64,000 nt of DNA from a virus. Its lineage: Duplodnaviria > Caudoviricetes. This document shows, piece after piece, positions 1,901 to 49,993 of this stretch (positions within the stretch are counted from its first letter, which is position 1; each line of letters opens with the position of its first letter). A model generated the notes under the pieces. It ran no database searches and was not told the origin of the DNA. It saw only the letters and a list, made by a program, of their open reading frames with translations. The stretch is from the IMG/VR virus record IMGVR_UViG_3300025986_000001, positions 1 through 64,000 of that record. One strand, 5' to 3'. A program made the position numbers and the translations under genes.

Positions 1901-2962
1901 ATGACACGCATGCAGTTCGGCGGCGGGCCCGAGGACGTCTACCTGGTCAGCGACAGCGAGAACGACCTGCAGCCCGGCGGCGGCGCCACGGTGCTGTTCT
2001 TCAGCGCGGAGACCGGCAACAACCCGATCACGGACCTGCTGGACACCAACTTCTCCCCGATCACCAGCATCATCACCAGCACCGGCACCGACGGGCGCGC
2101 CGCCGGGCAAATCAAACCTTTCTACGGCCCCGACGGGGTGTTCGAGATGTGGGCCAGCGCCAACGGATCACCCCGGTTCCTCATGCAGGCCTCCGACCTC
2201 GGCTCCTACATGGGCCCCGTCAAGGACCAGTTCGATCAGCACGCCGCGCAGTCCAACGGCCACGGCACCAAGCTGCAGGACCTGATCGGCGTCTCCAGCG
2301 CGGTGGCCACCGCCACCGACGGGCAGGCTCTGCTCTACAGCTCCGGTTCCGGACTGTGGGTGGCCGGCACCGTGGCCGGCGGCGGCGGGAGCGGCGACGT
2401 CACCACCAACACCGCGCAGACGATCAGCGCGACCAAGACCTTCACCACGGTGCAGAACTTCAACGCCGGGCAGCTGTCCAAGCCGGCCAGCACCACCGGT
2501 CAGGGCCGGATCCTGCAGGCGCTGGCCAGCCAGAGCGGCAACGTCGAGGAGTGGCGCGACTCCACCGGCGCCGCGAAGGCGTGGATGACCAGCGCCTTCG
2601 CGCTGAATGCGCCGAACCTGGGCCGCTCAGTCACCTTCGTCAAGTCGGGCACGGTCGCCACCGGCACCGGCACCTACCGCTGGTACAACGATCTCGGTGT
2701 CACCCTGACCATCCGGTCGGTGCGTATCTCGCTGGGTACCGCGTCCACCTCCGGCACGCCGACGGTGGACGTGAACAAGAACGGCACGACCATTTACGGA
2801 ACCCAGGGCAACCGGCCCACTATCGCGGTCAGCGGCCTGACCTCCGGCAAGAACACCGGTTTCTCGGTGTCCACGCTGGCCGACGGCGACTACCTGACCG
2901 CCGACGTCGATGTGGCCGGCACCGGCGCCGCCGACCTCGTCGTGCAGATCGAAGTGGTCTAG
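1901..2962 (+). CDS. minor tail / tail fibre protein
   Basis: Start reassigned to MTRMQFGGG; G/S/T-rich; GDYLTADVDVAG C-terminal domain. Confidence 0.7.
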   Translation: MTRMQFGGGPEDVYLVSDSENDLQPGGGATVLFFSAETGNNPITDLLDTNFSPITSIITSTGTDGRAAGQIKPFYGPDGVFEMWASANGSPRFLMQASDLGSYMGPVKDQFDQHAAQSNGHGTKLQDLIGVSSAVATATDGQALLYSSGSGLWVAGTVAGGGGSGDVTTNTAQTISATKTFTTVQNFNAGQLSKPASTTGQGRILQALASQSGNVEEWRDSTGAAKAWMTSAFALNAPNLGRSVTFVKSGTVATGTGTYRWYNDLGVTLTIRSVRISLGTASTSGTPTVDVNKNGTTIYGTQGNRPTIAVSGLTSGKNTGFSVSTLADGDYLTADVDVAGTGAADLVVQIEVV

Positions 2963-2964
2963 GG

Positions 2965-3675
2965 ATGCCGATCGCGTACGTCGGCGCCGCCTCGGTGCTC
3001 AACTCCACCTCGGGCTCAAGCACCGCGGTGCCGATGCCGGCCGGCCTCGCCGTCGACCACATGATCTACGTGATGGTGGCCAACGTCGGCAACTCGCCGG
3101 TGCCGTCCGGGCCGTCCGGCTGGACGCTGGTCGGCAGTTACAGCCCCGGCACCACGCTGACCACCTACCTGTACCGCAAGGTCGCCGTCAGCGGCGACGT
3201 CGGCGCCACCCACACCTGGACCTGGTCGTCCAGCGGCCGCAACCTCGGCGCGGCGGTGGCGTACTCGGGGGTCGACGCCACCGTCACCACCAACGCCGCG
3301 CAGGTGTGGACGCATGACGTGGCCAACGCGCCGATCACCGCGGCGAGCCTGGCCGCGGTGGCCGGCGACTGGCTGGTGACCGTCGGCCTGGGCCGGGAGA
3401 ACCCCGGCACCGCCACCACCAAGGACTGGAGCATCGAGACCGCTACCGACTCGCAGCGGCTGGACATCGCAACCGGCGGCGCCAGCACCGACGTGAAGCT
3501 CAGCCTCGGCTGGTTCGACTCCAACGGCACCAGCATTACCGGCTCCACCAGCCGCATCGTCGACGTCACGCCGGTGCAGCAGCAGAGCCACGTCTGGTCG
3601 ATCCTGCTCAACCGGCCGGCCAGCGAATCTGCCGGCGGTAACCCGTGGACCCACATGGGCCTGCCGCAGCGGTGA
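2965..3675 (+). CDS. minor tail / virion beta-sandwich protein
   Basis: Start reassigned to MPIAYVGA; PSGWT...LYRK motif; tail context. Confidence 0.6.
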   Translation: MPIAYVGAASVLNSTSGSSTAVPMPAGLAVDHMIYVMVANVGNSPVPSGPSGWTLVGSYSPGTTLTTYLYRKVAVSGDVGATHTWTWSSSGRNLGAAVAYSGVDATVTTNAAQVWTHDVANAPITAASLAAVAGDWLVTVGLGRENPGTATTKDWSIETATDSQRLDIATGGASTDVKLSLGWFDSNGTSITGSTSRIVDVTPVQQQSHVWSILLNRPASESAGGNPWTHMGLPQR

Positions 3676-27623: not shown

Positions 27624-30545
27624 CTACGCCTGCCGGCTCGCCATCGCCGCCTCGTCGGCAAGCACCCGCGCCAGCTCGGCGGCCCGCAGCGCGGCCATCT
27701 CGGCCAGCTGCGTTGCCGAGACGCCCTGCTCCGGGGTGTGCGTCTCGGTCATACCGGCGGGCCGCTGGATGAGCCGGGCCGCTGCACGCCGGCCGGCCTC
27801 GACGCCGTCCGGGGTCAGCGTCCAGCTACCGCTGGCCGGGCCGCGGTCGATCTTCTGTACCCGGTCGGACGGCAACGGCTTGCTCCCGCCGACGGTGGGG
27901 TCGAGCTGGTCGGCGGCACGGGTGATGGTCGATTCCACCGGCGGCTTGCCCCAGCCGGGCGCCCGGCCCCACGCCTCGTGGGTGTCGATCTCCTTGCGGC
28001 TGATGCCGGGGTTCTCGTGCAGGATCGCCAGGACCACGTCGCGGGCGGCCATCTTGCCCTGCGGCTGCGCCGGGTCGGCCGGCTGCACAGCCTTGGGCCG
28101 CATGGCGGCCAGCGCGGCGCCCATCGTCATCGCCGCTTCGTCGTCCTCCTCGTCCTCCTGGGCGTCGGCGAGCAGCCGGCCGATGTTCGGCCGGAAGCTG
28201 CCGTCGGGCTGGTAGTCGCGGGCCAGCATCCACATGTCCCAGACCCCGGTGTCCTTCATGATCTCGACCGTTTCCTGCGAGATCCAGGTCAGCGGGTCGT
28301 CGATCTGCAGCGCCGGCTCGGCGCCCTTGCCCCACAGCGTGGTGTACACGGTGTCCTCGGCCGCCGGGTCGCGGCTGACGAACGCGGCGCGCAGCGGGAT
28401 CTGCGGCGCGCCGGGGGCCTGCCGCAGGCACATGCCGGGCAGCAGCGGCAGGTCGGCGGTCGAGTAGTTCTGGTTGCGCCCGCCGGCCAGCCGGCTGGAC
28501 AGGTCGCCGGTGCGGTACATCGTCAGCGACGTCAGGTTGATCAGGTCGCGCAGTGTCGAGTCGCCGAAGTCGGCCAGGCCGCCGCCCTGGCTCAGCAGCT
28601 TCGCGCCCATCGCGGCGGCGCGCTGGAACCGCACCATGTTGACGAAGTCCACCAGGAAGCCCTGATCTTTGGCCTGGTCGTGGAACTCGTCCCAGATGTG
28701 GGCGATCGGCTGGCCGTAGACGCCGATCTTCCCGGTCTGCGGGTCGTGGGTGTTCCACTTGCTTTCGCCGGCCACCTTCGCGCCGTACCGGTTGGTCTTC
28801 GGCGCGGCCGCCAGCTTCGTCTCGCGGCGCTGCCGCTCGGCGTGCAGGAAGGCCAGGATCATGCGCCGGTGCCGCCGGGTGAACCCGATCGGGAAGATCC
28901 CGGCGAAGTCGGCGTAGTCGACCAGCCGCTTCGGGTCCACCAGGATCGGGAAGATGCAGGCCATCAGCAGGTTGCACAGGTAGCGGGTGGCGTCGGCGCC
29001 CTTGCCGCCGCCGGTGGTGCCCACGACACCGCCGCCGAACGGCTGACCCGGCTTGTACAGCACCTCCTGCAGGTCGTCGCCGGTCAGCGCGCGTCCCAGG
29101 TAGCCGTGGCGGGTGCCGTCGGCGTCGACCTGCACCGCCGTCTCGGCGCGCCACGGCACGGCGTCGCCCAGCCGGGCCCGGTCGGTAATCATGATCATGA
29201 AAGTGTTCTGCCGGCCGCCGGGGTTGTCGACCAGCGAGATGGCCGCCGCGTCGTGCTTGCCGTCGAACAGCACGGCCACCAGCCAGTCCTTGGCCGCCTG
29301 CAGCGGCGAGACCATGCCGCCGCGGCCGACCAGCGCGCCCGGCTCGGCGGTGCCCAGGTACTCCCAGCCGATCCGCACCCGCTCGCCGGTCGTCGGGTCC
29401 GGCGCGGTGATCTCCCGCGTCTGCGCCGGGGCGATCTTCGTCCGGGTGATCTGCAGGAAGTTCTCCCGGGCCGTCTCGAGCCGGCCGATGCGCTCCCACT
29501 CGATGCGCATCCGCTCACCCTGGTGCTCCGGGTTGTCCTCGTCGTACGCGCCGACATCGGCCATCTGCTGGCGCAGCGCCGCCTCCGCCAGCATCGCCTG
29601 CGCCTCGACCTCGGCCTGCCGGGCCCTGGCCTCCGCCGCCCGGCGGGCGTTGTCGATCGCCAGCTGGCGGATCCGCTGCCGTTCGGCCCACAGCCGCTCC
29701 CAGTGCGCCCGGTTGGTCCACCAGGCCAGCCCCAGCCCGAGCAGGGTCAGCACCGCCCACTGCACGCCGCTGGCCGCGTCCAGACCGGCCAGCGCATCCA
29801 GGGCGCCGGTGGCCGCCAGGAAGACGCCGGTGCTGGCGGCCGCCCGGGTCACCCACAGGCCCCGCTCGCGGGCCTTCTTCGCGGCCCGGCCCTCCAGGCC
29901 CTGCTTGCGCAGCCGGGCCCGGATCTTCTCGACGTAGACGGCCAGCAGGTAGCCAGCGACCACACCGGCCACCGTGACCACGCTGGCCAGCGCCGCGGTC
30001 TGCAGTGCGCCGGTCATGTCGACGGTGTAGACGACGCCGACCTCGACGGCCACGCTCGCGGCCAGGCTGGGCAGGTGACCCTTACCGTCCTCGGCCAGCT
30101 GGGCCAGCTTGGCCGGCGCGCCGGCCCGGGTGTCACGGACCGCCGTCATCGCCGCCGAGGCCCGGATCCTCTCGGCGTACTGCATCTTCTTCTGCGCCCA
30201 CAGGTTGGCGACCCAGGCCAGCTGCCGCTGCCGGCCGACGGCGATTGGGTCGTCGTCGGTGTCGTCCAGCGGCACCAGCGCCAGCAGCTGCCCGTCGACC
30301 GGGCAGTGCTTGGCCTTCGGTTCGGTCCGCGGCGCGATCACCCACTCCGCAGTGGTGCAGGCGGCGGTGATGCACGCGTACAGCTTCCCGTTGACCTGGT
30401 AGGTCTGCTTGTCAACGGGAAGCTCGACGGCGTGCTGCTCCAGATTGCCGTTCTTGTCGCGCCAGACGTCGGACTTGTTCGCGTTGCCGGGAATCGGGGG
30501 CAAGGGCCGCTCGGTGCGGGGCATCGTCGCGGTCGACATGATCAT
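27624..30545 (-). CDS. traB: TraB-like FtsK/SpoIIIE conjugal DNA translocase
   Basis: N-terminal TMs and coiled coil; GTTGGGKG Walker A variant; IWDEFH Walker B; C-terminal wHTH-like domain. Confidence 0.75.
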   Translation of the reverse strand: MIMSTATMPRTERPLPPIPGNANKSDVWRDKNGNLEQHAVELPVDKQTYQVNGKLYACITAACTTAEWVIAPRTEPKAKHCPVDGQLLALVPLDDTDDDPIAVGRQRQLAWVANLWAQKKMQYAERIRASAAMTAVRDTRAGAPAKLAQLAEDGKGHLPSLAASVAVEVGVVYTVDMTGALQTAALASVVTVAGVVAGYLLAVYVEKIRARLRKQGLEGRAAKKARERGLWVTRAAASTGVFLAATGALDALAGLDAASGVQWAVLTLLGLGLAWWTNRAHWERLWAERQRIRQLAIDNARRAAEARARQAEVEAQAMLAEAALRQQMADVGAYDEDNPEHQGERMRIEWERIGRLETARENFLQITRTKIAPAQTREITAPDPTTGERVRIGWEYLGTAEPGALVGRGGMVSPLQAAKDWLVAVLFDGKHDAAAISLVDNPGGRQNTFMIMITDRARLGDAVPWRAETAVQVDADGTRHGYLGRALTGDDLQEVLYKPGQPFGGGVVGTTGGGKGADATRYLCNLLMACIFPILVDPKRLVDYADFAGIFPIGFTRRHRRMILAFLHAERQRRETKLAAAPKTNRYGAKVAGESKWNTHDPQTGKIGVYGQPIAHIWDEFHDQAKDQGFLVDFVNMVRFQRAAAMGAKLLSQGGGLADFGDSTLRDLINLTSLTMYRTGDLSSRLAGGRNQNYSTADLPLLPGMCLRQAPGAPQIPLRAAFVSRDPAAEDTVYTTLWGKGAEPALQIDDPLTWISQETVEIMKDTGVWDMWMLARDYQPDGSFRPNIGRLLADAQEDEEDDEAAMTMGAALAAMRPKAVQPADPAQPQGKMAARDVVLAILHENPGISRKEIDTHEAWGRAPGWGKPPVESTITRAADQLDPTVGGSKPLPSDRVQKIDRGPASGSWTLTPDGVEAGRRAAARLIQRPAGMTETHTPEQGVSATQLAEMAALRAAELARVLADEAAMASRQA

Positions 30546-30638: not shown

Positions 30639-31166
30639 TCAGCGGCGCCCTGCGTCGCGCAGCAGCGCCGGGCCGGCGCCGGTGGCGCGCTCCGCGTCCT
30701 GCACGTCACGCATGGTGGCCAGCGCCTGGAACGCGGCGGCGTTCAGCGCCTGCACCAGCACGGAGTGCTCGTGCACCGCGACCACCAGGTCGGCGGTGTG
30801 CGAGGCGACCGCGCTGGCCGCGTCGGTGGCGACCAGAGTCGCCGTCGGCGCCTGGTAGAGGTTGCTGACCTCGTCGAGGTTGCTCACCAGAGCGTCGAGC
30901 GCGTCGGCCGTCTTGCTCAGTGGGATCAGCTGCTCCCCCAGCGTGGCCAGGTCGGTGTTCAGGTTCGCCATTTCCAGGCCGATGAGATCGAGAACGCTGA
31001 AGGCCGCCTGGCTCGCCGGCACCTGCCGGGCGAGCGGGCGAGCCGGCAGCTGACCGGTGGCCCCCGCCGTCGACCCGCCGGCGGCGGGTCGAGCCGGGGC
31101 GAGGGCGGTCGGCCCCGGCGTAACCACGGGGGCGTTGTCGATGCGGGGAACGACGTCAGTGCTCAT
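30639..31166 (-). CDS. transfer-region helical protein
   Basis: Ala-rich helical ORF directly upstream of traB. Confidence 0.55.
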   Translation of the reverse strand: MSTDVVPRIDNAPVVTPGPTALAPARPAAGGSTAGATGQLPARPLARQVPASQAAFSVLDLIGLEMANLNTDLATLGEQLIPLSKTADALDALVSNLDEVSNLYQAPTATLVATDAASAVASHTADLVVAVHEHSVLVQALNAAAFQALATMRDVQDAERATGAGPALLRDAGRR

Positions 31167-31180
31167 GATCTTCTCCTTCC

Positions 31181-32461
31181 TCAGGCCCCGGCCTCGGCAG
31201 CGTTGGCGAAGACCTCGCCGCTGGCACCTTCGCGGTGCACCTGCTGCAGATGTTCCTGGGCCGGCTGCAGCGACACGAGCGCCTGCTCGCCCAGCTGGAT
31301 CGCCGTGGCGTTGTTCTCCCCGACCAGCCGCAGCCCCCTCTGCAGGACCTGCGCCATCCGGCCGGCTTCAGCCAGCAGCTCCCAGACCACCATCGGCACC
31401 GGGTAGATACCGGCCAGGCTGCGAATGCGGTGCAGCCGGCGCGCGACCACCCGCTGTGAGCCCTGCAGATCCGGCAACTGCCGTTCGACGCTGGCCAGCA
31501 GCGGCGGGATCGGCGCGAACAGCTGCAGGATGAAGTCCAGGTTGGTCTCGCCCTGCGGGCCCCGCCGTGGCGGGGTCTCACCGGACGGCAGCACCGTGGT
31601 GCCGTCTGCGGTCATGACATCTCCTTCGATGATTCGCTCGCCCGGGCCGGCAGGTCCAAGCGGCAGGGCCTCGTCGGCGTCGAGTACAGCCGCCGCCGGC
31701 CCACCGGTCACAACGGGATCCGCCAGGGGTGACCCGGCAGCGCCCGGCTCGTACACGAAGTCCGGCTCCGGGCCGTCCAGCGCCTCGGCCGCGAAGTCCT
31801 CGGTACCGCGCTCGTCCGGCTCGGGGCTCTGTTCGTCCGGCTGGGCGCTGCGCTTGCCCGGCCGCTGTTGTTCCTGCCACTGCCGCCAGCCGGCGCGGGC
31901 GCCTTCGGCGAAGCCGGTCAGGAAGTTCCAGAGGTCCCGGAAGAACGCACCGATCGCCGGGTAGGTACCGGTGATCTTCTCGTTCGCGCGGGCCATCTTA
32001 TCGTCGAAGAGCCTATACCCCGCCTTGGACTTCGCGACGGTGTCTTTCAGGAACTCCCACGGGTTTCGGACGGAACCGTCCGGCCGGTCCGGCTTGTCCC
32101 CGTCACGGTTGTTGTCGATCCAGTCCCGCAGCCGCTGCCGGTGCTCCTCCAGCAGCGCCGAGCGGGCCTGCGCCCGCTGCTTGAGGTCCGCCAGCACCTG
32201 CGCCGCGTCGGCGGCCAGCTGCTGGCGGCGTTCGGCCAGCTGCTCGGCGGTCAGCCGCGGCCGGCCCTCGAACCAGCCGGGCTTGTCCCAGCCGGACTTG
32301 ATGAACGCCTGCTCGATGCCGACCGCCAGGGCGGCGATGATCCCGATCACCGGGCCGCCCAGCAGGAAACCCGCGCCGATCGTCAGCGCGGCCGCCTTCT
32401 TCTCCTCGGGGGCCATCCCCGGCGAGCTGGTGCTCGCCGGGGGCGGCGCGGTAACGGTCAT
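31181..32461 (-). CDS. transfer-region membrane / coiled-coil protein
   Basis: N-terminal TM, coiled coil, acidic linker. Confidence 0.6.
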   Translation of the reverse strand: MTVTAPPPASTSSPGMAPEEKKAAALTIGAGFLLGGPVIGIIAALAVGIEQAFIKSGWDKPGWFEGRPRLTAEQLAERRQQLAADAAQVLADLKQRAQARSALLEEHRQRLRDWIDNNRDGDKPDRPDGSVRNPWEFLKDTVAKSKAGYRLFDDKMARANEKITGTYPAIGAFFRDLWNFLTGFAEGARAGWRQWQEQQRPGKRSAQPDEQSPEPDERGTEDFAAEALDGPEPDFVYEPGAAGSPLADPVVTGGPAAAVLDADEALPLGPAGPGERIIEGDVMTADGTTVLPSGETPPRRGPQGETNLDFILQLFAPIPPLLASVERQLPDLQGSQRVVARRLHRIRSLAGIYPVPMVVWELLAEAGRMAQVLQRGLRLVGENNATAIQLGEQALVSLQPAQEHLQQVHREGASGEVFANAAEAGA

Positions 32462-32465
32462 GGGA

Positions 32466-33317
32466 TCAGAACACTCCGTTCAGGACGTCGGCGCCGTCGG
32501 CGGTGGCGCCGGTGATCGCCGCCAGCGCGATTCCGCCGAAGATGAACACGGCGCCGATGCCGAAGATCGCCGCGGTGCGGGCCAGCTTGTCCGGCACCTT
32601 GTCGACCCAGATGTCGTAGGCGCCGGCGACGATGGCGCCCAGGCCGGCCACCCCGATGCCGGTCCGCACGATGGCGCGGATGCCCGAGGGCAGCTGGGAG
32701 ATCAGCGCCGTGTCGGCGTAGGCGATCAGCGGGATGATCACCAGACCGGCCAGCAGCAGCACGCCGAACGAGAACCAGTTCCACTTGTTCTTGTGGTTGG
32801 TCGCCGCGTCCGCCCGCTTGACGATCATGAAGGCGTAGATCAGGGTGACGATGCCCATCGCCGCGGCGGTCAGCCCCTGGCCGATGCCCTGCGGGTTCTG
32901 CAGCAGGCCGACCACGGCGGTGCCGCCGATCGGCAGCAGCGTCGGCGTCCACAGCGCGGCGGTGCGCGCCTCGTGGTCGGGCTGCTTGTCCGCCAGGTCA
33001 CGGATCATGCTGATCAGCAGGGCGACACCGTGCCAGCCCAGCGCCAGCGTGACCACCGCGGTCAGGTTGCCGACGAGCGCGCCGACACCGGCGCGGCCGC
33101 CCAGGCCGATCAGCCAGTGGATGAAGGGGATCATCGCGACGGTCAGCGCGAGGCCACCGATCGCGTAGAGCACGAACGCGCCCCAGCGGGCGTGTGAGCC
33201 GCGGTCCTTGTCCCGCATCTTCGGCAGGATCTTCTTGGCGGTCGTGACGCAGAAGATCGCGATCAGCAACGCGATCAGTCCGGTCTGGTGGGCGTTGATC
33301 CAGCCCAGGATGTTCAT
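32466..33317 (-). CDS. polytopic membrane protein (spread/transfer-like)
   Basis: About 8 hydrophobic segments; internal repeat DKQPDHEAR / DKVPDKLAR. Confidence 0.7.
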   Translation of the reverse strand: MNILGWINAHQTGLIALLIAIFCVTTAKKILPKMRDKDRGSHARWGAFVLYAIGGLALTVAMIPFIHWLIGLGGRAGVGALVGNLTAVVTLALGWHGVALLISMIRDLADKQPDHEARTAALWTPTLLPIGGTAVVGLLQNPQGIGQGLTAAAMGIVTLIYAFMIVKRADAATNHKNKWNWFSFGVLLLAGLVIIPLIAYADTALISQLPSGIRAIVRTGIGVAGLGAIVAGAYDIWVDKVPDKLARTAAIFGIGAVFIFGGIALAAITGATADGADVLNGVF

Positions 33318-33376: not shown

Positions 33377-33895
33377 TCAGGCGCTGTGCCCGGCCAGGTA
33401 GGCCATGCCCAGCGCGATCAGCAGGACGCCGGTCGCGACGCCGGCCTTGATGCGGGTGTCGGTGCCCTTGACGATCAGGTAGCCGGCGCTGTTCCACAAC
33501 GCCCGGCACAGCCCGGCCGCGGTCATCACCGTCCAGATGATCCAGTTGGCGGCCTCGCCCTTGCCCGGCGCGAGCCGGGTCCAGGCCAGCACCGGCGTCA
33601 TCGCCTCGACCGCCCAGTCGCTGCCGGCCGCCGAAGCGGCCGCCTGCACCTGCGCGGCCCGCAGCTCCTCGGCCAGCGCCGCACCCAGCCCGCCTCGCGG
33701 CGGCGGGGGCGGCGCGTACGGCTCCGGATTCGGCGCCGTACCTTGATCTACGAGCCTCAGATGTGGTACTCGCGCGCCCGCGGGTGCCCCCGGGCACGCG
33801 GATTCCGCCCCTTTTCGGGCCTCGAATCCGTGTTCCCGGGCAAGATCTGGGCGATGCACATGCGCACGCACATCGTCAAAGGGCTGCGCGCTCAT
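33377..33895 (-). CDS. membrane protein, transfer operon
   Basis: Two C-terminal TMs. Confidence 0.55.
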   Translation of the reverse strand: MSAQPFDDVRAHVHRPDLAREHGFEARKGAESACPGAPAGARVPHLRLVDQGTAPNPEPYAPPPPPRGGLGAALAEELRAAQVQAAASAAGSDWAVEAMTPVLAWTRLAPGKGEAANWIIWTVMTAAGLCRALWNSAGYLIVKGTDTRIKAGVATGVLLIALGMAYLAGHSA

Positions 33896-34109
33896 CGGTC
33901 ACACCTGCCTCTCGGTCGGTCAGTTCGATCAGTTCCCGGGCCACCCGCTCGACCGTGTTGTCGTCCGCGCGGGCGAAGGTGGCGCGGTAGTAGCGGGCCA
34001 CCGCGGCGAGGATTTCGCGGCCGTTGCCGGCCTCCTCCAGGTCCTTGAGCAGCCGGGCCTGCCGGCCCCGCCGGCGGGACGCGGCCCCGCCGGCGGGGCG
34101 CTTGGTCAT
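33876..34109 (-). CDS. small hypothetical protein
   Basis: MTKRPAGG; ATGA overlap. Confidence 0.5.
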   Translation of the reverse strand: MTKRPAGGAASRRRGRQARLLKDLEEAGNGREILAAVARYYRATFARADDNTVERVARELIELTDREAGVTDERAAL

Positions 34110-34513
34110 TTCCGTTGCCACGCGTACTTCTCCTCGTGGTCGTCGTAGGCGACCGGAACCCACAGGAACGAACGTTTCCGCAGGTCAGGCCAGTCGTCGG
34201 GGATGTAGGGGGTACGGCCACCGGTGATCTGCTCATCCTGCTGCGCAGGTAGCGGAGTGACTAGCAGCGCGTGGTCGTCGATGTCGGTGCGGCGGATCCG
34301 GTAGGCCCGGATCAGCCAGTCGAAGGTCCTGGCCAGGCGGGCCGAGGTGGGCCGAGAGAACTCCCCGCCGCGCAGATCCAGGTGCATCAGCGCGGGGGTG
34401 ATGGTGCTCGGTGTCACGTTCGGGGCTGTCAGCGGCGCCCCGTCGATGCGGGCCAGCTGCACCAGATACGGCAGCGGCCGGTCCTCGTCGTATAGATGGT
34501 TTTCTCGGCGCAT
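34106..34513 (-). CDS. hypothetical protein
   Basis: GGAGAG SD before MRRENHLY. Confidence 0.55.
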   Translation of the reverse strand: MRRENHLYDEDRPLPYLVQLARIDGAPLTAPNVTPSTITPALMHLDLRGGEFSRPTSARLARTFDWLIRAYRIRRTDIDDHALLVTPLPAQQDEQITGGRTPYIPDDWPDLRKRSFLWVPVAYDDHEEKYAWQRK

Positions 34514-34541
34514 CCTTGGCTCTCCTCGACGTTTCCCCAGG

Positions 34542-34916
34542 TCAGGCCGCCTGGGGCAGTTCGGGTGTGCGACGCGTGTGCGTGCGCACATCGGGCAGCT
34601 GGGGCTGCTGTACATCGACGACTACGCCCTCGAGCACCGGGTCGACCACGTAAGTGGAGATGGCCGCGGCGGTGGCCAGAACGGCTACCGCGCCGCCGAG
34701 AACGATCAGGAAGACCGGGCTCATCTGCAGATTCGGGACGTGTTGGGCCTGAAAGTAGAGGCCGGCCAGCGCCGTAAGGACTCCCTGTAGCAGGGCGCCG
34801 TACACAGCGTGACGGACTCGGGTCAGGCGACGGATCAGCGACTTCATGGAGTTGTCTCGCAATCTTGGGGTTGTTGCACGGGGTTGTTGCTCTGGAGGGT
34901 GGGACCGGCGGGTCAT
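34542..34916 (-). CDS. two-TM membrane protein with C-terminal C..C..H..C
   Basis: Hydrophobic segments; start may be 34847. Confidence 0.5.
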   Translation of the reverse strand: MTRRSHPPEQQPRATTPRLRDNSMKSLIRRLTRVRHAVYGALLQGVLTALAGLYFQAQHVPNLQMSPVFLIVLGGAVAVLATAAAISTYVVDPVLEGVVVDVQQPQLPDVRTHTRRTPELPQAA

Positions 34917-34936
34917 GACTCCCGCCGGCCGGTGGG

Positions 34937-36256
34937 TCAGTTGGCGACCTGATCCGTCTCGTCGTCTCCGGGACGGATCAGGTTCTGGATACCGGCCTCG
35001 ACGCCGAGACGGCCGGCGTGCGCCTTGCTGATGCCGAGACGCTTACCGATCTCCGCGTAGGAGACGGGAGACGTCCCGGACCGCAGAGACGCGACCTGGT
35101 GCAGGAGACGGGCGTCTCCCGCTCCCGTCTCATTCGTCGTCTCTGCCAGCGGCCCAGGAGACGGGAGCCGGCGAGACGGAGACGGAGACGCGGTCAGTGC
35201 GGCCGTCTCGGAGGAGACGAGGGACGGGACGACGTGCAGGCGCTGCTGCACGCGAGGCGTCTCCGTCTCCAGCAGTTCGGCCTCGACCGTCTCCACTGCC
35301 GGCCAGACCTTCGGCTTGCCGGACATCTTCCAGAGACGACGATCCTCGACCGCCAGAATCGGAGACGAGAGACGGTAGCGGGTGGCGTGCTTGAGCGAGC
35401 ACCAGGTGTCCCACGGGCACAGGATCCAGCTCATCGCCGAAAACTTCGGTGCCCGGGCGTCGACCAGGCCCTTCTCCCGCAGCCGCGCACGGTGCTTGTA
35501 GGCGGCCTGCTTGCCCCAGATCAGCACGCCCATGGTGCTCATCAGGGCCACGATCATCGCTGGTGCCCACTTGGCCACCATGGCGGCGTCCACCTCGACG
35601 GTGTCCGTGCGGGCCAGGTCCTGCGTCAGCTCGAAGATCGAGTGAGAGAGGATGAAAGCCGCGTTGAGCAGGATCAACGCGGCCAGCAGGAGCCGATGGC
35701 CGGCGGTGGAGTCACCCTCGATGCGGGTCTTCTCGTAGAGGGTTGCGGTCTTCCAGATACCGCCCTCGAAGGCCAGGGCCAGGGCCAGGGCGACTCCGTC
35801 GGGCAGGCTCAACGGCTCAGCGACGCCCGACTTGATCGTGAAGATGGCAGACACGACCAGCGGCGCGGCCAGCGGCAGGGCGCCGAAGGTGCGGTTGAAC
35901 CAGACCCCGGCGACTCGCAGCCACATGGGCAACGGGGCGATGACGTCATCGCCGGGTTCCGTCTCCAAACCGCGAGACGAGCTGCGGCGCTTGGTCGCGG
36001 CGGCCTGAGACGCCCGCTCCTGCGTCTCACGCTGCTCCTGCTCTCGGCGGAGACGGACGAGACGCTCCTGCTCGGCGCGCGTCTCGGCGGAGACGACGCG
36101 TGCGCGCCGCCAGGCAGAGAGACGAGACGCCGTCCGTCCCATAGGAGACGGCGTTGCGTCTCCGGGGGACGCCATCGGCGTCTCCGACGAAGCGCTCGGA
36201 GAGACGCCGAGCGTCTCCTCGTCTCCGTCTCGGTCTTGGGTGGGGGCGTTGTTCAT
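34937..36256 (-). CDS. Spd-like / DUF2637-like membrane protein with C-terminal HTH
   Basis: Coiled coil, four TMs, SYAEIGKRLGISKAHAGRL HTH; first gene of the transfer operon. Confidence 0.7.
   Translation of the reverse strand: MNNAPTQDRDGDEETLGVSPSASSETPMASPGDATPSPMGRTASRLSAWRRARVVSAETRAEQERLVRLRREQEQRETQERASQAAATKRRSSSRGLETEPGDDVIAPLPMWLRVAGVWFNRTFGALPLAAPLVVSAIFTIKSGVAEPLSLPDGVALALALAFEGGIWKTATLYEKTRIEGDSTAGHRLLLAALILLNAAFILSHSIFELTQDLARTDTVEVDAAMVAKWAPAMIVALMSTMGVLIWGKQAAYKHRARLREKGLVDARAPKFSAMSWILCPWDTWCSLKHATRYRLSSPILAVEDRRLWKMSGKPKVWPAVETVEAELLETETPRVQQRLHVVPSLVSSETAALTASPSPSRRLPSPGPLAETTNETGAGDARLLHQVASLRSGTSPVSYAEIGKRLGISKAHAGRLGVEAGIQNLIRPGDDETDQVAN
34955..35374. repeat. GAGACG/CGTCTC hexamer cluster A (23 copies by hand count)
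   Basis: Both orientations, inside the 3' part of the CDS. Confidence 0.9.
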
Positions 36257-36436
36257 GAGACGACCGTACAACACCGCCGAGAAAGTTTCTAGCAGGAGTC
36301 ACAAATTGCTCAACATTTCTGAGACGATGAGACGGGAGACGACGCCGTCTCATGAGACGGCCGAGGAGACGCCTTGCGTAGCATCACCGATCTACCCCAC
36401 TCGCCCTACCGACTCTGAGACGCCGGAACTCGTCTC
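35960..36436. repeat. GAGACG/CGTCTC hexamer cluster B (26 copies by hand count)
   Basis: Both orientations, in the 5' part of the CDS and its promoter region. Confidence 0.9.
36257..36291 (-). promoter_or_regulatory. putative leaderless promoter TAGAAA-N17-TACGGT
   Basis: -10 element separated from the ATG by exactly one CGTCTC hexamer. Confidence 0.45.
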
Positions 36437-36444
36437 CTCTACTC

Positions 36445-36511
36445 GCCTGACCCACGGCACACGAAAGCCCCCGGCTACCAACCGGGGGCTTTCGTGTGCC
36501 GTGGGTCAGGC
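36445..36511. terminator. perfect 30-bp inverted repeat
   Basis: GCCTGACCCACGGCACACGAAAGCCCCCGG-N7-complement; overlaps the stop codon of 36506. Confidence 0.8.
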
Positions 36512-37066
36512 AGCGCGGCGGGCGGTCGGCCGCGCCTGGGTCGCCAGCTCGTGGACCCAGTTCCACCATGAGACGCCGGCGAGCACGTCGGGGAGGCTGT
36601 CGTCGTATTCGACCTTGACGCGGTGGCCGGCGTCGTCCATGTGCATGATCACCAGTCGAGCATTGTCGATCATCCACCAGTCGGCGCGCGGCCCGAACGG
36701 GGCCTCCCCCAGGATGTTCAGCGCCGGCCGGGGGAGCGTGACGATCTGCTCGCCGGCGGCACGGTTCCACCGGTCGTTCCACTGCACGAACTTCTGGTAC
36801 TGCGTCGGAGGCTCGTCGACGACGCGGACCCGCTCGACGCGCACCCCGCGGGCGGTGAGCGCACGCACATTGGCGTACCACCGGACCAGCCAGGGCGAGT
36901 CGGTGGCCGGCCGCGGGGTGCCGGCGCAGAAGGCGGCGTACAGCAGGTCTTCTGCGCCGACGGCGTAGCCGGGCTGCTGTTCCCACCGCCAGGCGGTGGC
37001 GGTGGCGGCGGTGATCTGTTCGTCGAGGACGGTGCCGACGTCGTCGTCGGCCAGTTCGTAGCGCAC
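36506..37066 (-). CDS. DUF6879-like protein
   Basis: AWRWE.Q..Y, VERVRVVDEPPTQYQ, GEQI, DWWMID. Confidence 0.75.
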   Translation of the reverse strand: MRYELADDDVGTVLDEQITAATATAWRWEQQPGYAVGAEDLLYAAFCAGTPRPATDSPWLVRWYANVRALTARGVRVERVRVVDEPPTQYQKFVQWNDRWNRAAGEQIVTLPRPALNILGEAPFGPRADWWMIDNARLVIMHMDDAGHRVKVEYDDSLPDVLAGVSWWNWVHELATQARPTARRAA

Positions 37067-37083
37067 GATGACCTCCGGTTGGG

Positions 37084-37941
37084 CTAGTGGGGCACGGCGC
37101 GGCGGGCCGCGCCGATCAGTTCTGCGGCCGCGGTCCCGGTGACCGCATCGTTCCAGAGCCTGTCGGTGAGCAGGTGGTACTGGGCGACCCGGTCGTCCTG
37201 CAGTTCTTCGACGTCGCCGACGTGCAGCTCGATGTAGATCCGGTCGTCGACGATTTCGTAGGCATTCGCGGCGAAGGTATCCAGGAAGCGGTCCTGGGGC
37301 AGGATGCCGAGCCGGATGTTGGGAAGATCGATGACCGACTCCAGGCGGCTGAGCTGCCCGCGCATGATCTCAGGACTGAATCGCCAGGTCCGCAGCACCG
37401 CCTCGTCGAGCAGAACCTCGAACTGCCGGTGGGTGTCGTAGACCAGCAGGCCGCTGGACTGGCGTTCGGCCACGGCCGCGGCCAGGTCGATGCGGTACTG
37501 CTCGGTGTCCTGGTCGATGTCGGGGGTCGTGAGCGCGTCCATGTGCCGCAGCATCGCCGCGGAGTATGCCGGGGTCTGCAGGAAGCGCGGGACGAACACC
37601 TTCTCGTAGAAGCGGTAGCGGGTCGCGCTCGCCAGGACCTGGGTGTAGGACTTCTGCTGCTGCACGCGGCCGGAGAGCAGGTCGTCGTGGTAGCTGCGGC
37701 GCAGCGCGCGTGCCTGCTCGAGCATGGCCGTCCACTGCTGCAGAGACCCCGGCGGGGCGTCGACGATGCGCGCCCAGTCCCGCAGGTCGTCCTCGGTGGG
37801 CAGTTGCCGGCCGGTCTCGATCTTGCTGACCTTCGAGGGCGGCCAGCCGGCGTCGGCGGCCAGGCTCTTGCTCAGCATCGCGCCGCGCGCCGCGCGCAGC
37901 CGGTCGCCGAGTGGGTTGGCAGGGTTCGGGGTTGTCGTCAT
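37084..37941 (-). CDS. Xre HTH regulator with DUF5753 domain
   Basis: SKVSKIETGRQ, VPRFLQTPAYS, LDEAVLR, RGQLSRL. Confidence 0.85.
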   Translation of the reverse strand: MTTTPNPANPLGDRLRAARGAMLSKSLAADAGWPPSKVSKIETGRQLPTEDDLRDWARIVDAPPGSLQQWTAMLEQARALRRSYHDDLLSGRVQQQKSYTQVLASATRYRFYEKVFVPRFLQTPAYSAAMLRHMDALTTPDIDQDTEQYRIDLAAAVAERQSSGLLVYDTHRQFEVLLDEAVLRTWRFSPEIMRGQLSRLESVIDLPNIRLGILPQDRFLDTFAANAYEIVDDRIYIELHVGDVEELQDDRVAQYHLLTDRLWNDAVTGTAAAELIGAARRAVPH

Positions 37942-47489: not shown

Positions 47490-47970
47490 GAAGTCTCTTA
47501 GGGTTTTGATTTTAAGTTCTTATATAAGTACTTCTTTCTAGTAGGTAGTTGTGGGGATCCGTGCGATACCTTCAATCTGACCTGCGGAAACTCCGTGTTT
47601 GCCCAGGTCAGATTGAAGGTATCGCGACAGCACCTTCCGACCCCTCTGGGTAGGTCTCTACGAGGGACCAGACTTGATCACGTTCCGTCGATGCCAACAG
47701 CTGTCTCACCTGCAGAGATAGATCGTTGAGGGGTTCCGCGAAAAATCCTGGAAAACCACGTGATGGCACTTGCCATCCACCTAGTTTCTAAAAAATCTTG
47801 GGATGGCAAGTGCCATCACGTGGTTTTGCGGAATTACCGAACAACCACTGACCTGCGAAGATGTAATAAACGGAAAACCCCAGCGATGGCAATTGCCATC
47901 CAATAGTTTTCCGTTTTGTCCGATTTAACCCAGCTATGGCAAACGCCATGCAGGGGGTTTTCCGTTTATT
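47490..47970. other. putative plasmid-type replication origin
   Basis: AT-rich tract 47500-47545; inverted repeats of 22, 27 and 17 bp; four ATGGCA-N2-YGCCAT palindromes. Confidence 0.55.
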
Positions 47971-49252: not shown

Positions 49253-49993
49253 TCAGCGCGGGTAGAGCACGTCGCCGTTGTAGGTCTTCGGGCGCAGCCG
49301 CACGTTGTCGTCGAGGACGCTGATGTCGCCGTTGTAGGTTTCGGCCCATACCTGCGGGCGGGCATCACCGACGGCACCGACGGCGATGTTGCCGTTGTAG
49401 CTTTTGAGCTTGGATTCTTCGCCTACACCCAGCGCGCGGACATCGCCGTTGTAACTCTTCAGCCGTACCTGCGTGACGCCGACGCTGTGCACGTCGCCGT
49501 TGTAGCTTTTGCCCTTCGCGCTGCTGCCGGGCGGCAGGATGGCCCGCAGATGGATGACGGCGGGAGGGTCGCCGGCCGCGGCGCCGTTGTCGTCGCCCTC
49601 GACCAGTTTGCCGTTGATGTAGGTCTTACCGCCGCGGACCTGGATCCGTTTGCCGTTGATCATCATGTCGGCGTCACCTCGGCCGATCGCGATGGTCCCG
49701 CCGGACACCACGACGCCGCTGCTGATGTTCATGACGGAGGTGCCGCCGAAACTGCTGATCATGGTGCCACCGGTGGCCTCGGCCGGGAGGACGAGTTCGA
49801 CGCCTTCGCTGGATTCGCGCAGCGCCAGCCGGTCGATCGCTTCGACGGTGGGGCCGGAGTTGACCTCGGCGTATGCCTCGATCTGCGCCCGGCGGCAGCG
49901 GGAGTCGACCTCGAACGTGATGTTGGAGTTGTAACCCTCCAGGGTCAGGTGGATCGCCCCACCGCCGCGGGGCTCGAGAATCCGCGAGTACAT
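49253..49993 (-). CDS. DUF4097-like beta-strand repeat protein
   Basis: Five C-terminal (K/E)(S/T)YNG(D/N)(V/I) repeats. Confidence 0.7.
   Translation of the reverse strand: MYSRILEPRGGGAIHLTLEGYNSNITFEVDSRCRRAQIEAYAEVNSGPTVEAIDRLALRESSEGVELVLPAEATGGTMISSFGGTSVMNISSGVVVSGGTIAIGRGDADMMINGKRIQVRGGKTYINGKLVEGDDNGAAAGDPPAVIHLRAILPPGSSAKGKSYNGDVHSVGVTQVRLKSYNGDVRALGVGEESKLKSYNGNIAVGAVGDARPQVWAETYNGDISVLDDNVRLRPKTYNGDVLYPR

What the first reader, a model, noticed from the sequence alone, without database searches (positions are those of the whole stretch)
34937..36436. Membrane-anchored HTH protein whose own gene and promoter carry about 49 GAGACG hexamers
Seen: 23 copies in 34955-35374 and 26 in 35960-36436, with none in the ~585 bp encoding the TM helices. 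About 1 copy is expected by chance in 1.5 kb at ~70% GC. Copies occur in both orientations and several reading frames (ET, RD/GD, VS, RL, SP) and continue into upstream non-coding DNA, so selection is on the DNA rather than the peptide. One copy sits exactly between the putative -10 and the ATG. The protein has a coiled coil, four TMs and a C-terminal HTH, and heads the traB operon. Inference: a one-gene tether in which the protein binds a centromere-like array written into its own CDS and anchors the replicon to the membrane (segregation or intramycelial spread), with autoregulation. Alternatively the array is the cis-acting transfer locus for TraB, although described TraB sites are 8-bp direct repeats.
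Basis: partly seen in the sequence, partly recalled or inferred. Interest (0 to 1): 0.86.

Follow-up and report, generated by a model that had tools for sequence, protein, structure and literature searches.

The report
Binding-site array inside phage spread gene
A large soil phage of Streptomyces-like bacteria has written about 50 copies of the six-letter word GAGACG into and just upstream of the gene for a membrane protein with a DNA-binding tail; related phages and plasmids carry other words that change with that tail, so the gene most likely holds the protein's own docking sites and fixes the phage DNA to the membrane beside a plasmid-type DNA pump.

Summary
There are 49 GAGACG/CGTCTC copies in 34955-36436: 23 plus 26, around a 585-bp copy-free stretch. 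About 1-2 are expected.

Selection acts on the DNA. Arg-Leu is encoded as CGTCTC in 8 of 12 cases, against 1 of 216 elsewhere in the record.

The array is conserved. Ten homologous genes at 42-68% protein identity carry 43-64 copies of the same word, with heavy turnover of individual sites. Homologues with a different C-terminal domain carry other words: GCAGGAC, CGGAAC, CGGCAC and GAGACC. Cultured phages carry GTGACA (Karimac, Coruscant) or CGGACAC (Kromp).

The protein is a divergent SpdB2/DUF2637 spread protein (hhalign 97.7%). The 973-aa gene downstream is a divergent TraB/FtsK-like pump (hhalign 95.6%). The record is a tailed phage, not a plasmid, and has no ParA or ParB.

Best reading (about 0.5): the protein's own helix-turn-helix (HTH) binds the array and docks phage DNA at a membrane Spd/TraB complex, with autoregulation. 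Main rival: the sites are read by the TraB-like protein, as at a plasmid transfer locus (clt).

Earlier AI notes of this scan describe the same phenomenon on other DNA. I found no published description. I class it as a new variant of a known kind.

The parts
36444..36512 (-). Perfect 33-bp hairpin between the stop of the upstream DUF6879 gene and the array. It is a probable terminator that isolates the transcription unit.
   Evidence: -74 kcal/mol, z = -12.6, 0 of 200 shuffles fold as well.
36321..36436 (.). Upstream non-coding part of the array: 8 GAGACG/CGTCTC copies.
   Evidence: Homologous loci have 8-13 copies in the same place.
36263..36320 (-). Hexamer-free promoter gap. It contains conserved TAGAAA (36291-36286), a 17-bp spacer and TACGGT (36268-36263).
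   Evidence: Alignment of six homologous upstream regions. The generic consensus scan found no sigma-70 match.
36257..36262 (-). One hexamer (CGTCTC on the sense strand) lying exactly between the -10-like TACGGT and the ATG. It is a candidate operator, and the mRNA is probably leaderless.
   Evidence: conserved in all six aligned loci.
34937..36256 (-). Gene for the 439-aa SpdB2/DUF2637-like membrane protein (P0002; the longest ORF from a GTG at 36274 gives 445 aa).
   Evidence: hhalign against DUF2637 proteins gives Prob 97.7%, E 1.4e-12 over residues 107-299. Four hydrophobic peaks at 123-141, 145-163, 189-207 and 230-248.
35960..36231 (.). 5' coding array: 17 hexamers in the region encoding the disordered N-terminus and the charged helix (residues 9-99).
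35375..35959 (-). Hexamer-free 585 bp encoding the four-helix membrane domain and the juxtamembrane segment.
34955..35374 (.). 3' coding array: 23 hexamers in the conserved RYRLSSP...RRLW segment, the Pro/Ser/Thr/Glu-rich linker and the HTH itself.
   Evidence: RL is encoded as CGTCTC in 8 of 12 cases against 1 of 216.
34982..35074 (-). C-terminal HTH-like domain (about residues 395-425, VSYAEIGKRLGISKAHAGRLG). It is the candidate reader of the hexamer.
   Evidence: Conserved in all GAGACG carriers and replaced in carriers of other words. Sub-threshold Pfam hits to Sigma70_r4_2, HTH_23 and HTH_24. The Atlas model of residues 372-439 matches HTH clusters at TM 0.6-0.7.
33377..34848 (-). Four small conserved genes of the module (about 100, 135, 80 and 172 aa). 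Two of them have one hydrophobic helix.
   Evidence: Synteny in L001-L008; hydropathy. No family match.
32466..33317 (-). 283-aa polytopic membrane protein.
   Evidence: at least 6 hydrophobic segments. Conserved at 281-284 aa in most homologous loci.
30639..32461 (-). A 426-aa protein with one N-terminal membrane helix, and a 175-aa protein.
   Evidence: synteny.
27624..30545 (-). 973-aa divergent TraB/FtsK-like DNA translocase. It has N-terminal Cys motifs, membrane helices at about 180-280, a Walker A motif GTTGGGKG at about 507, a DEFHD motif at about 617, and a wHTH-like C-terminus at about 835-880.
   Evidence: hhalign against the FtsK/TraB-like proteins of Karimac, a Streptomyces plasmid and L025: Prob 95.6%, E 1.2e-8 over 503-720. 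Atlas feature hits to FtsK_SpoIIIE and 'plasmid transfer protein TraB' clusters. K513, E618 and H620 are invariant. Pfam, BLAST and PDB sequence searches were negative.
36506..37941 (-). Conserved upstream pair: an Xre-type regulator (HTH_31 + DUF5753, 37084-37941) and a DUF6879 protein (36506-37066).
   Evidence: conserved in L001-L003 and L005-L008. The Xre HTH is conserved even where the word differs.

Best explanation
The gene encodes a phage version of the SpdB2 'spread' protein of Streptomyces conjugative plasmids. It has an N-terminal charged helix, four membrane helices, a long flexible linker and a small C-terminal helix-turn-helix (HTH). About 50 copies of the HTH's recognition word, GAGACG, are written into the two compositionally tolerant ends of its own gene and into its promoter region.

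Inferred mechanism. The protein is inserted into the membrane next to the DNA that encodes it. Its HTH tails, several per oligomer on flexible linkers, bind the irregularly spaced sites by avidity. The phage genome thereby becomes docked at the membrane, at the complex formed by the co-transcribed membrane proteins and the TraB/FtsK-like double-stranded-DNA pump. The sites flanking the promoter and abutting the start codon would also give negative autoregulation.

The most likely use of the docking is the one this module has in plasmids: moving double-stranded DNA across hyphal cross-walls. Here that would spread phage genomes through a mycelium. Anchoring for replication is the alternative use.

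Shown here: the array, selection on the DNA, conservation of the array, co-variation of the word with the C-terminal domain, and family membership at profile level. Inferred: binding, docking, autoregulation and spread.
For: 1. Array and DNA-level selection. There are 49 copies against about 1-2 expected. RL is CGTCTC in 8 of 12 cases against 1 of 216; ET is GAGACG in 12 of 12 against 24 of 73; Ser is TCT in 15 of 38 against 32 of 1596.

2. Conservation with turnover. Ten further loci from independent samples, at 42-68% protein identity, keep 43-64 copies in the gene and its immediate flanks, with 0-14 in the rest of each locus. Of 110 aligned site positions in seven genes, 47 are unique to one gene and only 6 are shared by all. 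The number and density of sites are maintained, not particular sites.

3. Co-variation. All GAGACG carriers share the C-terminal SYAxIAxRLGxSKAHAGRLG motif. P0016, P0017, P0019 and L020-L023 have another C-terminal domain and other words: GCAGGAC, CGG(A/G/T)AC(R), CGGAAC x56-58 and GAGACC. Within that second class the putative recognition helix and the word change together. Cultured phages show the same design: Karimac cGTGACA x24, Coruscant aGTGACA x19 and Kromp CGGACAC x22. So does plasmid NZ_CP108353, with GAGCGC x34.

4. Rival readers do not co-vary. The neighbouring Xre HTH is conserved between the window and L008. The wHTH helix of the TraB-like protein in L008 falls within the variation seen among GAGACG carriers.

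5. Family. hhalign to DUF2637 proteins gives 97.7%. The protein has four membrane helices. [quoted passage not shown]

6. A TraB/FtsK-like pump lies downstream in conserved synteny.

7. Site spacing is irregular and both orientations occur (239 to 288). This fits flexible, multivalent monomer-type HTH binding.

8. The hexamer between the -10-like element and the ATG is conserved.
Against: No binding experiment or protein-DNA model exists.

The HTH assignment rests on sub-threshold Pfam hits and on a low-confidence Atlas model (whole-protein pLDDT 0.55). My own fold could not be made.

pSVH1 SpdB2 is reported to bind DNA non-specifically (PMC4447253).

All the words share a G-N-N-A-C frame even where the C-terminal domains look unrelated. 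They also resemble published TraB/TraA-bound clt repeats: pWTY27 TGACACC and pJV1 CCGCACA (PMC3583192). Both points leave room for another, conserved reader.

Karimac and Coruscant have a second array of the same word about 2.5 kb downstream of their FtsK-like gene.

The test against the TraB-like reader rests on only one informative lineage, L008.

Some family members have no array: BillNye, plasmid NZ_CP109008 (L031) and pIJ101 SpdB.

No phage is known to spread without virions.
Confidence: 0.5

Rival explanations
1. The array is a clt-type loading site read by the C-terminal winged helix of the TraB/FtsK-like pump. The SpdB2-like gene merely hosts it, much as part of the pWTY27 clt lies inside its traA gene.
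For: TraB proteins recognise short repeated words through a wHTH (PMC4447253; PMC3583192). Published clt words (TGACACC, CCGCACA) resemble the words found here in relatives: GTGACA, CGGCAC(A) and CGGACAC. Karimac and Coruscant carry a second array of the same word about 2.5 kb downstream of their FtsK-like gene. The 973-aa protein ends in a wHTH-like segment.
Against: The putative recognition helix of the TraB-like protein in L008 (word GCAGGAC) is nearly that of L006 (word GAGACG), while helices within the GAGACG group differ more. Known clt sites are 3-9 direct repeats in 50-175 bp. This array has about 50 copies in both orientations over 1.5 kb. The main array always sits in the SpdB2-like gene, 5.4 kb from the pump gene in this record and about 60 kb from it in Karimac.
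Confidence: 0.2
2. The sites are only regulatory. They form an operator field through which the protein, or another phage repressor, shuts off or times the toxic spd/traB operon in a kil-kor-like way, with no DNA-tethering role.
For: Sites flank the conserved promoter and one abuts the ATG. Streptomyces tra/spd operons are tightly repressed because unregulated traB expression is toxic (PMC4447253).
Against: Forty of the 49 copies lie inside the coding sequence, up to 1.3 kb from the promoter, and are kept at a cost of rare codons. Operators need a few sites, not 50. BE-cluster phages have a second array about 63 kb away, partly in an intergenic gap.
Confidence: 0.12
3. The array is a replication origin, a packaging (pac) site or a partition centromere embedded in a gene. 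Precedents are the lambda origin inside gene O and the P1 pac hexamers inside pacA.
For: Short repeats inside the gene of the protein that binds them are typical of such sites (own knowledge). The bipartite layout around a spacer resembles pac sites.
Against: The record has no ParA or ParB. The gene product is an integral membrane protein of the SpdB2 family, not an initiator or a small terminase. The terminase lies about 90 kb away. A separate origin-like palindrome field lies at 47.5-48.0 kb (note). There is no AT-rich unwinding element between the two arrays.
Confidence: 0.08
4. The sites are read by a host factor or an enzyme: a regulator being titrated, or a methylase or nuclease. CGTCTC is the Esp3I/BsmBI restriction-enzyme recognition word.
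For: It is a pure hexamer without flanking information, as for enzyme sites.
Against: The word is not avoided elsewhere in the genome (71 observed against 61-80 expected). The word changes with the phage protein's own C-terminal domain among closely syntenic phages. Fifty cleavable sites would be suicidal for the phage.
Confidence: 0.05

Closest known systems
SpdB2 of Streptomyces venezuelae plasmid pSVH1 (the DUF2637/PF10935 family is inferred here; no SpdB2 sequence was scanned)
   Same: About 410-440 aa with an N-terminal coiled-coil-like helix, four membrane helices and a C-terminal cytoplasmic domain. Encoded together with a TraB-type pump and other small membrane proteins. It binds DNA. 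Phage homologues were already noted and proposed to help spread phage DNA (PMC4447253). The window's protein matches DUF2637 proteins at hhalign 97.7%.
   Different: SpdB2 is reported to bind double-stranded DNA non-specifically, and no site array in its gene has been described. Here a lineage-specific 5-7-bp word is written 20-60 times into the gene and co-varies with the C-terminal domain. Pfam's DUF2637 model does not reach this protein directly. pIJ101 SpdB has no array.
clt loci with TraB recognition repeats (pSVH1 8-bp repeats; pJV1 CCGCACA(C/G)(C/G); pWTY27 TGACACC)
   Same: Short words repeated in cis on a mobile element that also encodes an FtsK-like pump. They can overlap a coding region, and the words are similar in style.
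   Different: clt sites have 3-9 direct repeats in at most 175 bp next to or inside traB and are read by the TraB wHTH. Here there are about 50 copies in both orientations over 1.5 kb in the spdB2-like gene, and the TraB-like wHTH does not co-vary with the word.
SpdA2 and its sps palindromes on pIJ101 (Thoma et al. 2014, PMC4170104; title and abstract seen, paper not read)
   Same: A Spd-operon protein that recognises a short specific DNA motif on its own plasmid.
   Different: SpdA2 is a small soluble protein that reads a palindrome. It is not a membrane protein with an intragenic array of about 50 copies.
Binding sites inside the binder's own gene: the lambda origin in gene O, and the P1 pac hexamers in pacA (own knowledge)
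   Same: The cis site is embedded in the coding sequence of the protein that reads it, which gives cis preference.
   Different: Those proteins are soluble replication or packaging proteins with 4-7 sites. There is no membrane anchor and no pump module.
Membrane or pole tethers with dispersed site sets: RacA with ram sites and Noc with NBS sites in Bacillus subtilis (own knowledge)
   Same: Many copies of a short site recruit DNA to the membrane or pole through one DNA-binding protein.
   Different: Those are chromosomal, with about 25-70 longer sites spread over hundreds of kilobases and peripheral membrane association. Here the protein is an integral membrane protein and all sites lie within 1.5 kb of its own gene.

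Membership tests
SpdB2 / DUF2637 (PF10935) spread proteins | Sequence or profile homology to DUF2637 | tested here: met
   hhalign of A1 against 8 DUF2637 proteins (7 confirmed by a Pfam scan or by their record's annotation; Peebs by 67% identity to Karimac gp33): Prob 97.7%, E 1.4e-12, residues 107-299. tblastn hits to the DUF2637 proteins of Karimac and Wofford, E 3e-4. Pfam does not hit the window's protein directly.
SpdB2 / DUF2637 (PF10935) spread proteins | Four transmembrane helices, with an N-terminal coiled-coil and a C-terminal cytoplasmic domain | tested here: met
   Four hydropathy peaks at 123-141, 145-163, 189-207 and 230-248. Residues 45-100 are 43% charged and helix-like. No dedicated topology or coiled-coil predictor was available.
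SpdB2 / DUF2637 (PF10935) spread proteins | Encoded with a TraB-type translocase and other Spd membrane proteins | tested here: met
   Conserved same-strand module ending in the TraB/FtsK-like gene.
SpdB2 / DUF2637 (PF10935) spread proteins | Oligomeric, pore-forming, binds dsDNA and TraB; required for intramycelial spread | not testable with these tools
   These are biochemical and genetic properties (PMC4447253).
TraB / FtsK-SpoIIIE DNA translocases | FtsK_SpoIIIE ATPase domain (PF01580) above threshold | tested here: not met
   No Pfam hit for the 973-aa protein or anywhere in the record. No BLAST or PDB sequence match.
TraB / FtsK-SpoIIIE DNA translocases | Profile-level homology of the motor domain, including the Walker A lysine and the Walker B acidic pair | tested here: met
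   hhalign of A2 against A4 (Karimac FtsK-like gp110, a plasmid TraB-like protein, and the L025 786-aa protein with GATGSGKS): Prob 95.6%, E 1.2e-8, residues 503-720. K513, E618 and H620 are invariant. Atlas feature hits to FtsK_SpoIIIE and TraB clusters at 0.92-0.95.
TraB / FtsK-SpoIIIE DNA translocases | N-terminal membrane anchor and C-terminal winged-helix DNA-recognition domain | tested here: inconclusive
   Hydrophobic segments at about 180-280. The C-terminal segment ARDVVLAILHENPGISRKEI...STITRAADQLD looks wHTH-like by eye only. No fold was available.
[quoted passage not shown] | A few 5-9-bp direct repeats in at most about 175 bp, next to or overlapping traB | tested here: not met
   About 50 copies, both orientations, over 1.5 kb, 5.4 kb from the pump gene. 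No other repeat cluster lies near 27.6-30.5 kb.
[quoted passage not shown] | Bound by TraB and required in cis for transfer | not testable with these tools
   Needs EMSA and mating or spread assays.
Plasmid partition centromere (parS/parC type) | A partner NTPase (ParA/ParM/TubZ) and a centromere-binding adaptor encoded on the replicon | tested here: not met
   No AAA_31 (ParA-type) or ParB_N match in the 130.8-kb record. ParM and TubZ were not searched. The record is estimated to be 93% complete.
Helix-turn-helix DNA-binding domain (C-terminus of the window's protein) | Recognisable HTH fold or profile | tested here: inconclusive
   Sub-threshold Pfam hits in family members: Sigma70_r4_2 in 3, HTH_23 in 2, HTH_24 in 2, HTH_IclR in 1. 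The Atlas's own model of residues 372-439 aligns to HTH_24/MarR/Sigma70_r4 clusters at TM 0.60-0.70, but whole-protein pLDDT is 0.55.

The most novel reading that the evidence does not exclude
SpdB2-type membrane proteins of Streptomyces phages and plasmids are sequence-specific. Each lineage reads its own 5-7-bp word (frame G-N-N-A-C) that is written 20-60 times into the protein's own gene. This forms a self-addressed docking locus that hands the element's double-stranded DNA to a TraB/FtsK-type pump. Large lytic and temperate actinophages would then be able to move naked genomes across hyphal cross-walls, which would be virion-independent spread of a virus inside a multicellular bacterium.
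Probability: 0.25. Interest if true: 0.9.

Novelty: new variant of a known kind. Interest (0 to 1): 0.74.

Why it matters
How Spd proteins recognise and hand over DNA during intramycelial spreading has been open since these proteins were described. SpdB2 is thought to bind DNA non-specifically, and only TraB is known to read a cis site.

A lineage-specific word, kept at 20-60 copies inside spdB2-like genes and changing with the protein's tail, would give SpdB2-type proteins a specific cis site. It would also explain why large Streptomyces phages carry conjugation-type pump modules.

The design occurs in cultured phages with tractable hosts, such as Coruscant on S. venezuelae and Karimac on S. 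griseus. The question of whether phage DNA is docked at membranes or moved between hyphal compartments is therefore directly testable.

The arrays are also a caution for annotation. The low-complexity ET/RL/SP/VS peptide stretches and the rare codons in these genes are by-products of a DNA signal.

Tried and rejected
No fold search could be run on either protein.
- Pfam, NCBIfam and PHROGs scans of the gene and its seven downstream genes gave only a weak PHROG 10376 hit.
- PDB sequence and profile searches of both families gave nothing significant.
- tblastn of the 971-aa pump against the phage and plasmid collections found no match.
- A viral-contig scan with A1 found no relatives.
- A search of the contigs behind L004, L020 and L023 failed because those records are not held.
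- Literature searches for GAGACG with Streptomyces and phage, for DUF2637, and for 'TraB recognition sequence' found no description of such arrays.
- Restriction avoidance or a decoy was rejected: the word is not depleted outside the array.
- The neighbouring Xre regulator as reader was rejected: its HTH is conserved where the word differs.
- A second clt-like cluster near the pump gene was sought and none was found.
- The array is not universal in the family: none in BillNye, in plasmid NZ_CP109008 (L031) or in pIJ101 spdB, and only a weak one in pNO33.
- Complex prediction was not used. It takes no DNA, and the two membrane proteins exceed its size limit without a known interface.
Full report
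**Observation.** A pattern search finds 84 GAGACG/CGTCTC copies in the 64-kb window. Forty-nine of them lie in 34955-36436: 23 in 34955-35374 and 26 in 35960-36436, with none in the 585 bp between. In the whole 130,757-bp record, only the 500-bp bins at 35.0-35.5 and 36.0-36.5 kb hold four or more copies. The rate elsewhere is 0.55 per kb. The Poisson probability of 49 copies against an expectation of 1.6 is about 1e-53. Aligning the oriented copies shows a pure hexamer with almost no flanking information.

**Selection is on the DNA.** The gene is 34937-36256 on the minus strand and encodes 439 aa; all homologues start MNNAPT. It contains 40 copies in five of the six frame/orientation classes. 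I compared it with 132 other ORFs of the record:
- Arg-Leu is encoded as CGTCTC in 8 of 12 cases against 1 of 216.
- Glu-Thr is encoded as GAGACG in 12 of 12 cases against 24 of 73.
- The rare Ser codon TCT makes up 15 of 38 Ser codons against 32 of 1596.

These counts are; Fisher P values are 3e-11, 1e-5 and 7e-15. Some copies sit in conserved protein segments (RYRLSSP, RRLW, and the HTH itself), where only codon choice creates them. The word is not avoided elsewhere: 71 observed against 61-80 expected from Markov orders 2-4. This is therefore not a restriction-avoidance pattern.

**What the replicon is.** The record is an IMG/VR virus record, estimated 93% complete. It encodes:
- a DnaE-type polymerase, DnaB, a tyrosine recombinase and pectate-lyase-type tail spikes;
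- a large terminase and a minor tail protein.

It is a tailed phage, not a plasmid. It has no ParA-type or ParB_N protein.

**What the gene is.** Pfam and NCBIfam give nothing. However, tblastn touches the DUF2637 proteins of the cultured Streptomyces phages Karimac and Wofford. A profile of 15 homologues matches a profile of eight DUF2637 proteins from cultured phages and plasmids at hhalign probability 97.7%, E 1.4e-12, over residues 107-299. Hydropathy shows four helices. The N-terminus is a charged helix and the C-terminus is HTH-like, though the evidence for that is weak: sub-threshold Pfam hits and a match of the Atlas model of residues 372-439 to HTH clusters at TM 0.6-0.7. This is the architecture reported for SpdB2 of pSVH1. 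[quoted passage not shown]

**The module.** The gene follows a perfect 33-bp hairpin (-74 kcal/mol). It has a conserved TAGAAA-N17-TACGGT element, followed directly by one hexamer and then the ATG. The downstream genes lie on the same strand and their order is conserved in most of the homologous loci fetched:
- four small proteins;
- a 283-aa polytopic membrane protein;
- a 426-aa single-pass protein;
- a 175-aa protein;
- a 973-aa protein.

The 973-aa protein has membrane helices, an invariant Walker A lysine (GTTGGGKG), an invariant DEFH motif and a wHTH-like end. Pfam, BLAST and PDB sequence searches are negative. Three other lines do link it to the TraB/FtsK family:
- Atlas features point to FtsK_SpoIIIE and 'plasmid transfer protein TraB' clusters.
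- The syntenic gene in L025 has GATGSGKS and a weak FtsK_SpoIIIE hit.
- A profile comparison with the Karimac FtsK-like protein, a plasmid TraB-like protein and the L025 protein gives 95.6%, E 1.2e-8, over the motor core.

**Conservation and co-variation.** Ten further loci from independent metagenomes and sequencing runs, at 42-68% protein identity, carry the same word. Each has 43-64 copies in the gene and its immediate flanks, against 0-14 in the rest of the locus. All have the same bipartite layout around the membrane domain and the same promoter gap. Individual sites turn over: of 110 aligned positions in seven genes, 47 are unique to one gene and 6 are common to all. All these proteins share the C-terminal motif SYAxIAxRLGxSKAHAGRLG.

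Homologues with a different, longer C-terminal domain carry other words in the same layout:
- L008: GCAGGAC / CRGGAC, 40 in the gene region against 20 in the flanks.
- L004, L021 and L023: CGG(A/G/T)AC(R).
- L020: CGGAAC, 56-58 copies.
- L022 (a third kind of tail): GAGACC.
- L024: CGGCAC.

Within the second tail class, the putative recognition helix differs where the word differs.

Cultured phages show the same design at 48-72% GC:
- Karimac: cGTGACA, 24 against 2.
- Coruscant: aGTGACA, 19 against 9.
- Peebs: GGACA / GTGACA.
- Kromp: CGGACAC, 22 against 7.

The DUF2637 gene of plasmid NZ_CP108353 does the same with GAGCGC, 34 against 6. BillNye, plasmid NZ_CP109008 (L031) and pIJ101 spdB have no array.

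**Who reads the sites.** There are three DNA-binding candidates nearby.
- The Xre neighbour keeps its HTH between the window and L008, although the word differs.
- The wHTH helix of the pump in L008 (PATVSRAAND) is nearly that of L006 (PATVMRAAKA), which is a GAGACG locus, while helices within the GAGACG group differ more.
- Only the SpdB2-like protein's own tail changes with the word.

This favours self-recognition, but for the pump it rests on a single informative lineage. Three facts keep the clt-like rival alive:
- All the words fit a G-N-N-A-C frame.
- They resemble published TraB/TraA-bound clt repeats: TGACACC in pWTY27 and CCGCACA in pJV1 (PMC3583192).
- Karimac and Coruscant both carry a second array of the same word about 2.5 kb downstream of their FtsK-like gene.

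**Mechanism proposed.** Site spacing is irregular (4-12 bp start to start is common) and orientation is mixed (239 to 288). The HTH sits on a Pro/Ser/Thr/Glu-rich linker of about 70 residues. This fits multivalent binding by an oligomeric membrane protein rather than a fixed dimer operator. Placing the sites in the protein's own gene favours action in cis, because the nascent membrane protein is made next to them. The result would be a phage genome docked at a membrane complex that contains a double-stranded-DNA pump. Copies around the promoter would give feedback control. By analogy with plasmids, the purpose would be to pass DNA across hyphal cross-walls. Nothing here shows that this occurs.

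**Comparison and novelty.** The protein family, its presence in actinophages, TraB pumps and clt repeats are all known. I found three things undescribed in the papers I could search: the dense lineage-specific word array inside spdB2-like genes, its maintenance by selection on synonymous sites, and its co-variation with the protein's tail. Earlier AI notes of this scan report the same phenomenon on other DNA, with TGCA, TGCCAG, TRTGAAR and ACCGCGNNTCC arrays. They agree with this reading but are not independent evidence. I class the finding as a new variant of a known kind.

Noticed in passing
Karimac NC_048724.1 78916-79051 (L014) and Coruscant MT711976.1 77428-78012 (L035): A second array of the same word, GTGACA (about 12-13 copies), lies about 2.5 kb downstream of the FtsK-like translocase gene. 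It is partly in a 333-336-bp intergenic gap after a DUF3307 gene, and is conserved between the two cultured phages.
   Followed up: partly
L030 (plasmid NZ_CP108353.1, record 1949-3193): The DUF2637 gene of a 93-kb circular Streptomyces plasmid carries about 34 GAGCGC/TGAGCGC copies, against 4-6 in 5.4 kb of flank. Own-gene arrays are therefore not confined to phages.
   Followed up: partly
window 49274-49652: A cluster of GCCGTTGTA(G) (5 copies) and CAACGGC (8 copies) lies inside and just upstream of the ORF 49253-49993 (-). It is iteron-like and separate from the GAGACG array.
   Followed up: no
window 47762-47936: GATGGCA palindromes (6-7 copies) lie in the low-GC stretch at 47-48 kb (GC 0.55). 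This is the origin-like field that other first-stage notes also flagged.
   Followed up: no
P0056, P0058 (homologues of the 973-aa pump); record 126424-127794 (L012:2424-3794): Some homologues of the TraB/FtsK-like protein carry LAGLIDADG/Hom_end intein-like inserts. The record's large terminase appears split or interrupted, with a LAGLIDADG_3 domain in the 456-aa piece.
   Followed up: no
whole record outside 34900-36600: Several hexamers are strongly under-represented against an order-3 Markov expectation: ATCGTA/TACGAT (8 against 37), AGGGAC (13 against 35) and the palindrome GGGCCC (50 against 128). This may be restriction avoidance.
   Followed up: no
window 36444-36512: A perfect 33-bp stem with a 3-nt loop (-74 kcal/mol) and no U tract lies between the DUF6879 gene and the array. 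It is unusually long for a terminator.
   Followed up: partly
window 36506-37941 and loci L001-L003, L005-L008: A conserved pair, an Xre regulator (HTH_31 + DUF5753) and a DUF6879 protein, always precedes the module. It is replaced by other genes in L004/L025, where the pump is also of a more canonical type (GATGSGKS).
   Followed up: partly
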